Positions 33,502 through 58,034 of a stretch of 64,000 nt of DNA are shown here, one piece after another. Each line of letters opens with the position of its first letter. Position 1 is the stretch's first letter. The notes under the pieces are model-generated. The model was given only the letters and a program-made list of their open reading frames with translations. It searched no databases and was not told the DNA's origin. Location of the stretch: contig JAYRII010000012.1 in the NCBI GenBank assembly GCA_041906885.1, positions 94,955 to 158,954 of the forward strand, written 5' to 3'. This DNA comes from Candidatus Saccharimonadia bacterium (GTDB lineage: Bacteria; Patescibacteriota; Saccharimonadia; CAILAD01; CAZGYV01). The position numbers were made by a program, and so were the translations under genes.

Positions 33502-33615
33502 TTATTGGTCGTTTTTACGCAGGGCCGCGATCATGGCAGCAAGACCGATACATACCCCCACAAAGGAGTATGCAATTGTGGCAACCACCAACTTGTCATA
33601 AATCCGCTTCTTCAT
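33502..33615 (-). CDS. candidate 37-aa hydrophobic peptide (MKKRIYDKLVVATIAYSFVGVCIGLAAMIAALRKNDQ)
   Basis: GGAG RBS 7 nt upstream of ATG; single TM; not in ORF track because <60 aa. Confidence 0.3.
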   Translation of the reverse strand: MKKRIYDKLVVATIAYSFVGVCIGLAAMIAALRKNDQ

Positions 33616-33671
33616 TATTATCTCCATTTTTATTTGGTCATGCAGTATCCCTTACAGATACAAATGTACTA

Positions 33672-33746: not shown

Positions 33747-33908
33747 TGGTGATCCCACGGGGAGTGTAGCTACGCTACGTGCATTCGCAGTGCTCGATCC
33801 GCCCGGTGGCGGATTCTGTGCTCTGCTCATTGGCACCCGCCCCATGGGTTCGAGATATCTCACGATATCAACCATGAAAAATGCCCACCTTGCGGTGAGC
33901 TTCTTTCA
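33747..33908 (-). repeat. ~140-nt element downstream of tRNA-Glu ending in a 19-nt direct repeat (TGGTGATCCCACGGGGAGT, plus-strand 33747..33765) of the tRNA 3' end
   Basis: exact 19-nt duplication of 33909..33927; internal hairpins; homologous to element after tRNA-Leu. Confidence 0.55.
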
Positions 33909-33983
33909 TGGTGATCCCACGGGGAGTCGAACCCCGGTTACCAGGATGAGAACCTGGCGTCCTAACCACTAGACGATGGGACC
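33909..33983 (-). tRNA. tRNA-Glu (anticodon CUC), 75 nt with encoded CCA
   Basis: cloverleaf folded by eye: acceptor GGUCCCA/UGGGAUC, D-stem GUCU/GGAC, anticodon stem CCAGG/CCUGG loop UUCUCAU, T-arm CGGGG-UUCGACU-CCCCG. Confidence 0.9.
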
Positions 33984-57755: not shown

Positions 57756-57842
57756 GCCAGAGTGGTGGAATTGGTATACACGCATGACTCAAAATCATGT
57801 GGAGCTTGCTCCTTGTGGGTTCGAGTCCCACCTCTGGTACCA
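57756..57842 (+). tRNA. tRNA-Leu (anticodon CAA), 87 nt with long variable arm and encoded CCA
   Basis: acceptor GCCAGAG/CUCUGGU, anticodon stem CAUGA/UCAUG loop CUCAAAA, variable arm GGAGCUUGCUCC, T-arm GUGGG-UUCGAGU-CCCAC. Confidence 0.9.
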
Positions 57843-58010
57843 ACTAAAGCTCGCACGCCAGTGGGGGCTTTAGTTGGTATTTGGCGAGAACCCAAGGTTC
57901 GGTGAAGCAGAGCGCGCAGGCCAAAAGTCAAATTAATTTGATCTTTTACCGAGCACTTTGCGGAGGTCGCGTCAGCGACAGTCCCACCTCTGGTACCAAC
58001 TAAAGCTCGC
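57843..58010 (+). repeat. ~130-nt element after tRNA-Leu ending in 30-nt direct repeat (GTCCCACCTCTGGTACCAACTAAAGCTCGC, 57981..58010) of the tRNA 3' end + trailer (57825..57854)
   Basis: exact 30-nt duplication; ~75% similar to the tRNA-Glu-associated element over much of its length. Confidence 0.55.
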
Positions 58011-58034
58011 GCGTTAGACTGCAAGGTAGTTTTT

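What the first reader, a model, noticed from the sequence alone, without database searches (positions are those of the whole stretch)
33747..33983. tRNA-Glu followed by a ~140-nt element bounded by a 19-nt duplication of the tRNA 3' end
The last 19 nt of tRNA-Glu including CCA (ACUCCCCGUGGGAUCACCA) recur exactly 162 bp downstream. This is the architecture of attL/attR around an integrated element that targets a tRNA 3' end. But the enclosed DNA is only ~140 nt: a GNRA-capped hairpin + U-run, a palindromic GATATC hairpin, then further hairpins. It may be a heavily decayed integrative-element scar, or a miniature tRNA-targeting element. A tmRNA was considered and rejected: there is no 5' tRNA-like half and no tag ORF.
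Basis: seen in the sequence. Interest (0 to 1): 0.65.

Follow-up and report, generated by a model that had tools for sequence, protein, structure and literature searches.

The report
Miniature mobile element at tRNA ends
A 162-base insertion sits at the end of a tRNA-Glu gene in a Saccharibacteria genome and repeats the tRNA's last 19 bases; it belongs to a small family of tRNA-end-inserting elements with a second copy at tRNA-Leu and a gene-carrying copy in a related species, and its layout matches the long-unexplained RtT repeats behind the E. coli tRNA-Tyr genes.

Summary
tRNA-Glu(CTC) lies at 33983..33909 on the minus strand. Its last 19 nt (T-loop A58 to CCA) recur exactly 162 bp downstream, at 33765..33747.

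A related species has the empty site. The DNA after its tRNA continues into the DNA that follows the second copy here. The feature is therefore a clean 162-bp insertion, not a conserved trailer.

It is not unique. tRNA-Leu(CAA) at 57756-57842 carries a homologous 156-bp insertion, and its duplication also starts at A58.

In a related species the Leu element holds 1.9 kb of cargo (two genes). The cargo sits between the same left hairpin and the same ~105-nt right-end module, bounded by the same 19-nt repeat. Four other relatives are empty at that site.

No recombinase was found in the elements or among the 30 window ORFs checked. No Rfam family matches, and no copy turned up in viral, phage, plasmid or JGI metagenome collections.

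Best reading: a cargo-less miniature island integrated by site-specific recombination in the tRNA 3' part, with the enzyme supplied in trans.

The closest known layout is E. coli RtT (178-bp units, each ending in tRNA-Tyr A58-A76). There is no detectable sequence homology to it.

I rate this a new variant of a known kind, of moderate to high interest.

The parts
33909..33983 (-). tRNA-Glu(CTC), an intact gene with encoded CCA. Its last 19 nt (33909-33927, A58-A76) are the first copy of the repeat (attL-type junction).
33871..33912 (-). Left hairpin H1. A long hairpin pairs the tRNA's ACCA plus the A-rich trailer with UUUUCAUGGU. Its core is a GCAA-capped G+C stem followed by a U run (33883-33900), a terminator-like site that could act in both directions.
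   Evidence: (I2)
33854..33869 (-). GATATC-GUGA-GATATC hairpin. It is present only in the Glu element, so it is not a conserved part of the family.
33766..33853 (-). Conserved right-end module. It comprises the block GAACCCANGG (33842-33851), the long hairpin H3 (33779-33836) with conserved base AGCAGAGC...CGAGCACT, and the 5-bp hairpin H4 (33766-33778), which abuts the repeat.
33747..33765 (-). Second copy of the tRNA-Glu 3' end (A58-A76), the displaced fragment (attR-type junction). The native trailer follows it.
57756..57842 (+). tRNA-Leu(CAA), target of the second family member. The first repeat copy is 57824-57854.
57838..57879 (+). Left hairpin H1 of the Leu element (19-nt arms, loop GCCA). 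It pairs UACCA plus the trailer with GCUUUAGUUGGUA.
   Evidence: (I1)
57875..57979 (+). Right-end module of the Leu element: GAACCCAAGG at 57888-57897, H3 at 57907-57962, H4 at 57966-57979.
57980..58010 (+). Second copy of the tRNA-Leu 3' end plus 12 nt of trailer. It is 31 nt exact, or 34 nt with one mismatch, at a spacing of 156.

Best explanation
The feature is a cargo-less member of a small family of elements that insert into the 3' part of tRNA genes.

Each element has the same layout, read in the tRNA's direction:
- a replacement copy of the tRNA from T-loop A58 to CCA, which keeps the gene intact;
- a long hairpin that includes the ACCA end and looks like a two-way terminator;
- an optional cargo slot;
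- a conserved, hairpin-rich module of about 105 nt;
- the displaced original 19-nt tRNA end, followed by the native trailer.

I infer Campbell-type site-specific recombination between a circular form (core + hairpin + module, about 160 bp without cargo) and the tRNA gene. The crossover would lie within A58-A76. The recombinase would be encoded elsewhere, so the element is non-autonomous, analogous to a cis-mobilisable element or a MITE. The conserved module would then be the cis-acting arm that this enzyme and its accessory factors need.

Shown: the insertion, the family, the cargo-bearing relative, the empty sites, and the conservation of the hairpins.

Inferred: the circular intermediate, the type of enzyme, and the role of the module.

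The elements lie directly behind tRNA genes, and the Leu copy's first hairpin lacks a good U run. The module is therefore probably also co-transcribed as a tRNA trailer RNA, as E. coli RtT is.
For: Clean insertion:
- The L006/L007 trailer after the tRNA-Glu CCA is homologous to the window DNA after the second copy. The two alignment blocks overlap by 24 nt.
- All five related tRNA-Glu loci have a single copy.

Family:
- The tRNA-Leu element has a 31-34-nt duplication that also starts at A58.
- The two inserts share collinear blocks. The chain of exact matches is 29 nt against 11.6 +/- 5.0 in 1000 dinucleotide shuffles, and the global alignment scores 24.2 against 10.6 +/- 2.8. In each test 1 of 1000 shuffles reached the real value.
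- A covariance model built from the Leu elements alone finds the Glu module at E = 0.018 in 169 kb and 3.7e-5 locally.

Cargo version:
- L028/L029 have tRNA-Leu, the same H1 stem, 1.9 kb holding an SDR gene and a frameshifted aldo-keto reductase, the module (96/105 identical), and then an exact 19-nt repeat at a spacing of 2085.

Empty Leu sites:
- L030, L032, L035 and L036 are empty.

Selection or recent transfer:
- Third-codon positions between these species are 36-57% identical, against 91% for the module.
- Two compensatory pairs occur in H1.
- Every substitution inside the modelled H3/H4 helices of the Leu module keeps the pair.
- H4 differs between Glu and Leu by a compensatory A-U to C-G change (read from the sequence).

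Foreign trailer in L028:
- The first-copy trailer is of the window/L035 type and the second-copy trailer is not.

Background: direct repeats of 15-25 bp made of the tRNA 3' end and starting in the T-loop are the norm for integrase-borne islands (PMC4383910; 10.1101/2020.11.02.365908).
Against: - No recombinase gene lies in either window element, in the L028 cargo, or among the 30 window ORFs scanned.
- No excised form, attP-bearing replicon or polymorphic site within the species was seen. All assemblies of this species carry the element.
- A 160-bp circle is very small for recombination.
- Hairpin-rich arms with compensatory changes are not typical of tyrosine-integrase attP arms.
- Only three module sequences exist, from two independent lineages, so the covariation statistics are weak.
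- The family was not found anywhere else.
- The Glu element appears to carry a Leu-type terminator hairpin with a Glu-specific core. A simple integrase model does not explain how the core was exchanged.
Confidence: 0.6

Rival explanations
1. Inert scar. Each element is what remains of an ordinary kilobase-sized, integrase-bearing island after internal deletion. The hairpins are leftover terminators with no present function or mobility.
For: The L028 island shows that a larger form exists. Its cargo is flanked by an exact 16-nt inner direct repeat (TGAGCTTTAGTTGGTA), and a deletion between the two copies gives precisely the window's cargo-less Leu form. No integrase was found anywhere. One cargo gene in L028 is already frameshifted.
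Against: Two elements at different tRNAs have decayed to the same minimal architecture and kept collinear homologous ends. The module is 91% identical between species whose synonymous sites are saturated. Hairpins are kept through compensatory changes. Even the L028 form has no trace of an integrase.
Confidence: 0.2
2. RtT-like trailer RNA. The insert is primarily a structured RNA gene co-transcribed with the tRNA. Its tRNA-like 3' end (copy of A58-CCA) lets the tRNA 3'-processing machinery release and stabilise it. Copies arise by local duplication or unequal crossing-over rather than by an element-specific recombinase.
For: The layout is the same as E. coli RtT: units directly behind a tRNA, each ending in the 19-nt A58-A76 copy. 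In the Glu element a 12-bp helix (GAACCCAUGGGG/CCCCGUGGGAUC) pairs the tail like an acceptor/T-stem stack. The element is G+C-rich (0.51-0.58 against 0.43) and strongly folded. The Leu H1 lacks a good U run, so read-through is likely.
Against: Tail pairing is only marginal for Glu (23/500 shuffles) and absent for both Leu copies, against 0/500 for RtT. Sense and antisense strands fold equally well. Local duplication explains none of the following: the unrelated 143-nt filler, the cargo version, the foreign trailer in L028, or homologous modules at two different tRNAs. This function could co-exist with mobility.
Confidence: 0.12
3. Staggered-cut transposition. An enzyme of casposase/Cas1-like or other type cuts the tRNA gene at 57/58 on one strand and after 76 on the other. 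It inserts the element, and gap repair creates a 19-bp target-site duplication.
For: The duplication is exactly 19 nt (A58-A76) in the Glu element, in L028 and in E. coli RtT, with both limits at structural landmarks of the tRNA. This would explain automatically how homologous elements come to carry the matching end of different tRNAs. From my own knowledge, casposons target tRNA 3' ends with 14-15-bp duplications.
Against: No terminal inverted repeats were seen. The element's left end resembles a native tRNA-Leu trailer and terminator, which fits an attP that captured a tRNA 3' region rather than a transposon end. The window Leu duplication is 31-34 nt, not 19. No Cas1-like gene was seen.
Confidence: 0.08

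Closest known systems
Genomic islands and prophages integrated in tRNA genes by tyrosine integrases (T-loop/3'-end sublocation, P4-like type; Islander definition)
   Same: The tRNA gene is regenerated by element-borne sequence. The displaced 3' fragment forms a direct repeat that marks the far end. The repeat starts in the T-loop and runs to CCA, and 19 nt falls in the usual 15-25-bp range. Relatives have empty sites. Cargo sits between the ends in L028.
   Different: The element is 162 bp (2.1 kb with cargo), whereas the Klebsiella survey cited found no integrase-bearing island under 3.5 kb. There is no integrase gene. The right end is a conserved hairpin-rich module shared by elements at two different tRNAs.
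E. coli RtT RNA / tyrT-tyrV 178-bp repeats (Rfam RF00391, rttR)
   Same: The units lie directly downstream of a tRNA gene and are of similar size (178 against 156-162 bp). Each ends with the tRNA's last 19 nt starting at A58 (AATCCTTCCCCCACCACCA). They are G+C-rich and structured. Their origin and function are still unclear.
   Different: There is no Rfam hit at E <= 10 and no significant pairwise similarity. RtT is tandemly repeated and tied to tRNA-Tyr. Its tail is firmly paired in a closing helix (0/500 shuffles), which is not conserved here. No cargo-bearing RtT form is known to me.
Non-autonomous derivatives of integrative elements (cis-mobilisable elements, CIMEs), and MITEs as the transposon analogue
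   Same: These keep the ends needed in cis, lack the enzyme, and are presumed to be mobilised in trans. They can arise by internal deletion.
   Different: As I recall them, CIMEs are kilobase-sized and derive from ICEs. MITEs have terminal inverted repeats and short target duplications, and neither is seen here.
Casposons
   Same: They target tRNA gene 3' ends and duplicate part of the target.
   Different: Casposons have terminal inverted repeats, a 14-15-bp duplication and Cas1 and polymerase genes. None of these is present.

Membership tests
tRNA-integrated island (site-specific recombinase type) | Intact target tRNA gene plus a displaced 3' fragment as a direct repeat at the far end | tested here: met
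   Glu; Leu; L028
tRNA-integrated island (site-specific recombinase type) | Empty (virgin) site in related genomes, with the native trailer continuous after the tRNA | tested here: met
   L006/L007 for Glu; L030, L032, L035 and L036 for Leu
tRNA-integrated island (site-specific recombinase type) | Integrase gene inside the element | tested here: not met
   The window elements have no ORF of suitable size. The L028 cargo is an SDR gene plus a frameshifted AKR. No recombinase domain was found in the 30 window ORFs scanned.
tRNA-integrated island (site-specific recombinase type) | Excision or integration activity (attP/attB forms) | not testable with these tools
   No read-level data are available. 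All assemblies of the species carry the filled site.
RtT RNA (Rfam RF00391) | Score at or above the family's gathering threshold | tested here: not met
   No RtT hit even at E <= 10 on the Glu, Leu or L028 regions. E. coli units score 133-137 bits.
RtT RNA (Rfam RF00391) | Unit directly behind a tRNA gene that ends in the tRNA's 19-nt A58-A76 copy | tested here: met
   here; for E. coli
RtT RNA (Rfam RF00391) | Tail sequestered in a closing helix with an upstream strand | tested here: inconclusive
   Glu: -22.1 kcal/mol, reached by 23/500 shuffles. LeuW 99/500, LeuR 400/500, RtT 0/500.
tmRNA (including permuted forms) | tRNA-like domain plus tag reading frame | tested here: not met
   ARAGORN and Rfam find none in the window
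MITE / DDE transposon derivative | Terminal inverted repeats and a short (2-15 bp) target duplication | tested here: not met
   The repeat scans show no terminal inverted repeats apart from the pairing created by the tRNA-end copies themselves. The duplication is 19-34 nt.
Guide-RNA scaffolds of transposon nucleases or recombinases (omega RNA, bridge/seek RNA) | Match to a described scaffold family and an adjacent TnpB, IscB or IS110 gene | tested here: not met
   No Rfam match and no such gene next to any copy. The resemblance (scaffold followed by a 19-nt target-identical 3' end) is only formal.

The most novel reading that the evidence does not exclude
The ~105-nt module plus the A58-CCA tail may define a previously unrecognised class of minimal, non-autonomous tRNA-end integrating elements. 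These would be minicircles of about 160 bp that can pick up cargo. Their T-loop A58 junction is shared with the E. coli RtT repeats. If so, RtT and these elements are products of one tRNA-structure-directed insertion mechanism that is widespread in bacteria. The module would be its cis-acting, possibly RNA-level or folded-DNA, recognition component.
Probability: 0.2. Interest if true: 0.8.

Novelty: new variant of a known kind. Interest (0 to 1): 0.6.

Why it matters
tRNA genes are the classic landing sites for islands, but the elements described so far carry their own integrase and are kilobases long. Here the whole element can be 160 bp, yet it keeps conserved ends, occurs at two different tRNAs, and can hold cargo. 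That suggests a minimal, trans-mobilised vehicle for gene gain in the reduced genomes of Saccharibacteria.

It also offers a testable origin for the E. coli tyrT/RtT repeats. As I recall, these have been known since 1978; they show the same 19-nt A58-CCA block and similar unit size, and their origin and function remain unclear.

In practice, the 19-34-nt repeats break short-read assemblies at tRNA loci.

Tried and rejected
Searches that found nothing real:
- Six exact-pattern scans of viral contigs found no real copy. Four used Glu-specific patterns, one a shared right-end pattern (92) and one a Leu-specific pattern (107).
- A seventh viral scan, with the family consensus pattern, gave only chance hits inside a phage ORF (L026/L027).
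- The one JGI metagenome scan gave a single chance hit in a high-GC ORF.
- blastn of both elements against phage and plasmid collections found nothing.
- A chimeric six-frame 'protein' query, meant to catch spurious ORFs called over homologous modules in Logan/ENA, found nothing.
- Rfam in E-value mode on all three loci gave only tRNA.

Attempts to extend the data:
- Extending the genome beyond the window gave no hit on the left. On the right it gave 10 kb with no tRNA.
- MAFFT misaligned the Glu and Leu elements. Homology was therefore tested with a Leu-only covariance model and with shuffle-controlled chaining.

Ideas considered and dropped:
- tmRNA or a permuted tmRNA: no call from ARAGORN or Rfam.
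- A decayed second tRNA copy or a tRNA-derived module: no significant similarity of the inserts to tRNA positions 1-57.
- A group II intron fragment, a ribozyme or an omega/bridge RNA: no Rfam hit and no partner gene.
- True homology with E. coli RtT: not significant.
- A strand-specific RNA fold: sense and antisense are equally stable.
- A promoter inside the module for the L028 cargo: none found.

Full report
**1. The observation**

tRNA-Glu(CTC) is on the minus strand at 33983..33909 (ARAGORN; Rfam tRNA 62 bits). Read in the tRNA's direction, its T-arm is CGGGG-TTCGACT-CCCCG. The 19-mer ACTCCCCGTGGGATCACCA therefore runs from T-loop A58 to the encoded CCA.

This 19-mer occurs twice in the window and nowhere else, even with three mismatches allowed, and none is expected by chance. 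The repeat extends to 24 nt with one mismatch, and the spacing is 162.

One of them is a terminator-like GCAA hairpin followed by a U run. The stretch is unusually stable (z = -5.8; z = -6.4 with the tRNA included). Independent assemblies from several sequencing runs are 100% identical here.

**2. It is an insertion**

The flanking DUF3048 protein places the window in Saccharibacteria. Its closest relatives are only 68-74% identical in protein sequence.

Five related loci keep the gene order AsnRS - response regulator - histidine kinase - tRNA-Glu - DUF3048. All have a single copy of the tRNA end.

In L006/L007 the sequence after the CCA is TGAAATCATTGCTAATAT..., followed by the terminator AAAGCCATCTG...AGATGGTTTTTT. 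This is homologous to what follows the second copy in the window. BLAST splits the window sequence into two blocks that overlap by 24 nt on L006.

The window therefore carries a clean 162-bp insertion with the tRNA end duplicated.

**3. A second, homologous element**

While checking the other tRNA of the window I found the same layout at tRNA-Leu(CAA), 57756-57842. The sequence AGTCCCACCTCTGGTACCAACTAAAGCTCGC recurs 156 bp downstream (31 nt exact, 34 nt with one mismatch). This duplication also starts at A58 of the T-loop.

The two inserts share a collinear series of blocks:
- a long first hairpin that includes the tRNA's ACCA;
- TGGT;
- GAACCCANGG;
- AGCAGAGC ... CGAGCACT, which form the base of a long hairpin whose tip differs completely between the two;
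- a 5-bp hairpin that abuts A58. It is GTAGC-GTA-GCTAC in the Glu element and GTCGC-GTCA-GCGAC in the Leu element, a compensatory A-U to C-G change.

A plain local alignment is not significant. Two tests that use collinearity are. The chain of exact matches is 29 nt against 11.6 +/- 5.0, and the global score is 24.2 against 10.6 +/- 2.8. In each test 1 of 1000 dinucleotide shuffles reached the real value.

A covariance model built from Leu sequences only finds the Glu module at the expected place, with E = 0.018 in 169 kb and 3.7e-5 locally.

**4. A cargo-bearing orthologue, and more empty sites**

I fetched the tRNA-Leu locus of relatives through the adjacent sortase.

L030, L032, L035 and L036 are empty. 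In them tRNA-Leu is followed within a few bases by its terminator or by the convergent gene.

L028/L029 belong to the species that is empty at tRNA-Glu. There the tRNA-Leu region contains, in order:
- tRNA-Leu;
- the same first-hairpin stem, with a different tip and two compensatory pairs;
- 1.9 kb with a short-chain dehydrogenase gene and a frameshifted aldo-keto reductase on the opposite strand;
- the right-end module, 96/105 identical to the window's;
- an exact 19-nt copy of A58-CCA, 2085 bp from the first.

An exact 16-nt inner repeat (TGAGCTTTAGTTGGTA) flanks the cargo. A deletion between its two copies would give the window's cargo-less form.

The trailer after the first copy in L028 is of the type found natively in the window and in L035 (ACYAAAG...). 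The trailer after its second copy is not. This suggests the element brought a foreign tRNA-Leu trailer with it.

L028's species and L030's species are slightly closer to each other (74-79% protein identity) than either is to the window (72-74%). The element's distribution therefore needs either a loss or a second gain.

**5. Conservation and structure**

Third-codon positions between the window and the L028/L006 species are 36-57% identical. The module is 91% identical. Intergenic DNA around these tRNAs is also fairly conserved (80-96%), so this argument is supportive rather than decisive.

Every substitution inside the modelled H3/H4 helices of the Leu module keeps the pair. With only two or three sequences, though, the shuffle controls carry no weight.

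Sense and antisense strands fold equally well. I therefore cannot say whether RNA or folded DNA is the object of selection.

The modules are G+C-rich (0.51-0.58) in a genome of 0.43 G+C.

**6. What was not found**

No recombinase domain was found in the L028 cargo or in the 30 window ORFs scanned. The region is core genome, including the division/cell-wall cluster, aminoacyl-tRNA synthetases and MreB.

No Rfam family other than tRNA matches.

No further copy was found in viral contigs, JGI metagenomes, phage or plasmid collections, or the roughly 250 kb of related loci held. The only hits were chance matches in ORFs.

**7. Mechanism**

The best-supported model is Campbell-type site-specific integration into the tRNA 3' part. 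The element brings A58-CCA and a terminator, so the tRNA stays functional. The displaced original end marks the far side.

This is the defining geometry of tRNA islands (PMC4383910). Repeats of 15-25 bp that start in the T-loop are typical of one group of integrases (10.1101/2020.11.02.365908).

The departures from that model are these:
- the size, 162 bp or 2.1 kb;
- the absence of an integrase, so any mobilisation must be in trans;
- the conserved hairpin-rich right end, shared by elements at different tRNAs.

One point stays unexplained. The Glu element's first hairpin has a tip resembling the Leu-type native terminator, but its core and stem base are specific to tRNA-Glu. How the core was exchanged is not accounted for by a simple integrase model. 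A staggered-cut (target-duplicating) mechanism would explain it, but it fits the other data less well.

**8. Comparison with RtT**

I checked my recollection of the E. coli tyrT locus. K-12 has four RtT units (RF00391, 133-137 bits) at 178-bp spacing behind tyrT and tyrV. Each ends in AATCCTTCCCCCACCACCA, which is tRNA-Tyr A58-A76.

The 19-nt block, the A58 start, the unit size and the position directly behind a tRNA gene all match the elements here.

Membership fails, however. There is no Rfam hit and no significant sequence similarity. RtT's strong tail-closing helix (0/500 shuffles) is only marginal in the Glu element (23/500) and absent in the Leu elements.

RtT is present in 4726 of 5426 complete E. 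coli genomes, at 1-9 places per genome. A preprint reports raised 'mobilome' coverage of the region under stress and calls its mode of action unknown.

**9. Verdict**

The element is best described as a cargo-less miniature member of a new small family of tRNA-end integrating elements in Saccharibacteria. Its architecture resembles RtT.

It is a new variant of a known kind. The enzyme, the strand and level at which the module acts, and the family's true distribution all remain open.

Noticed in passing
window 57756-58013: A second element of the same family sits behind tRNA-Leu(CAA). It has a 31-34-nt duplication starting at A58, a spacing of 156, and a homologous hairpin and module. It was not part of the finding I was given.
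   Followed up: yes
window ~33630-33660 (minus strand); compare L006 2947-3738, L010 2030-2794, L013 2880-3674: The window lacks the cytidylate-kinase-like gene (PF02224, ~260 aa) that relatives carry between tRNA-Glu and the small ORF upstream of the histidine kinase. Only ATGACCAAATAA remains. It is unclear whether this deletion is linked to the element.
   Followed up: partly
L010 2978-3811; L001 4251-5849: The DNA just downstream of tRNA-Glu differs in every relative. L010 has a DUF4357 gene and L001 has a 532-aa convergent gene, neither with a tRNA-end duplication. The site is a general hotspot.
   Followed up: partly
L017 ~45 (other strain, SRR27448550); window 33982: tRNA-Glu has G2, giving a G2.U71 wobble, in the window. 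The L017 strain has A2, giving an A-U pair.
   Followed up: no
L037 15743-15760; L038 13468-13485: Logan contigs of this species end inside the second tRNA-Leu tail. The 31-34-nt repeat breaks k = 31 assemblies, so such elements will often be lost from short-read MAGs.
   Followed up: partly
L028 1817-2622: The aldo-keto reductase in the cargo of the related Leu element is split into two ORFs (184 + 74 aa), so it is probably a frameshifted pseudogene.
   Followed up: no
L039 (E. coli K-12 NC_000913.3 1286300-1288000): All four RtT units end in the tRNA-Tyr 19-mer that starts at A58. RtT is variably present in complete E. coli genomes (4726/5426, 1-9 places per genome, 18 on plasmids).
   Followed up: partly
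window 33513-33626 (minus strand): A 37-aa hydrophobic ORF (MKKRIYDKLVVVATIAYSF...) upstream of the histidine kinase is conserved in L006 and L013. It is probably a small membrane protein of that operon.
   Followed up: no
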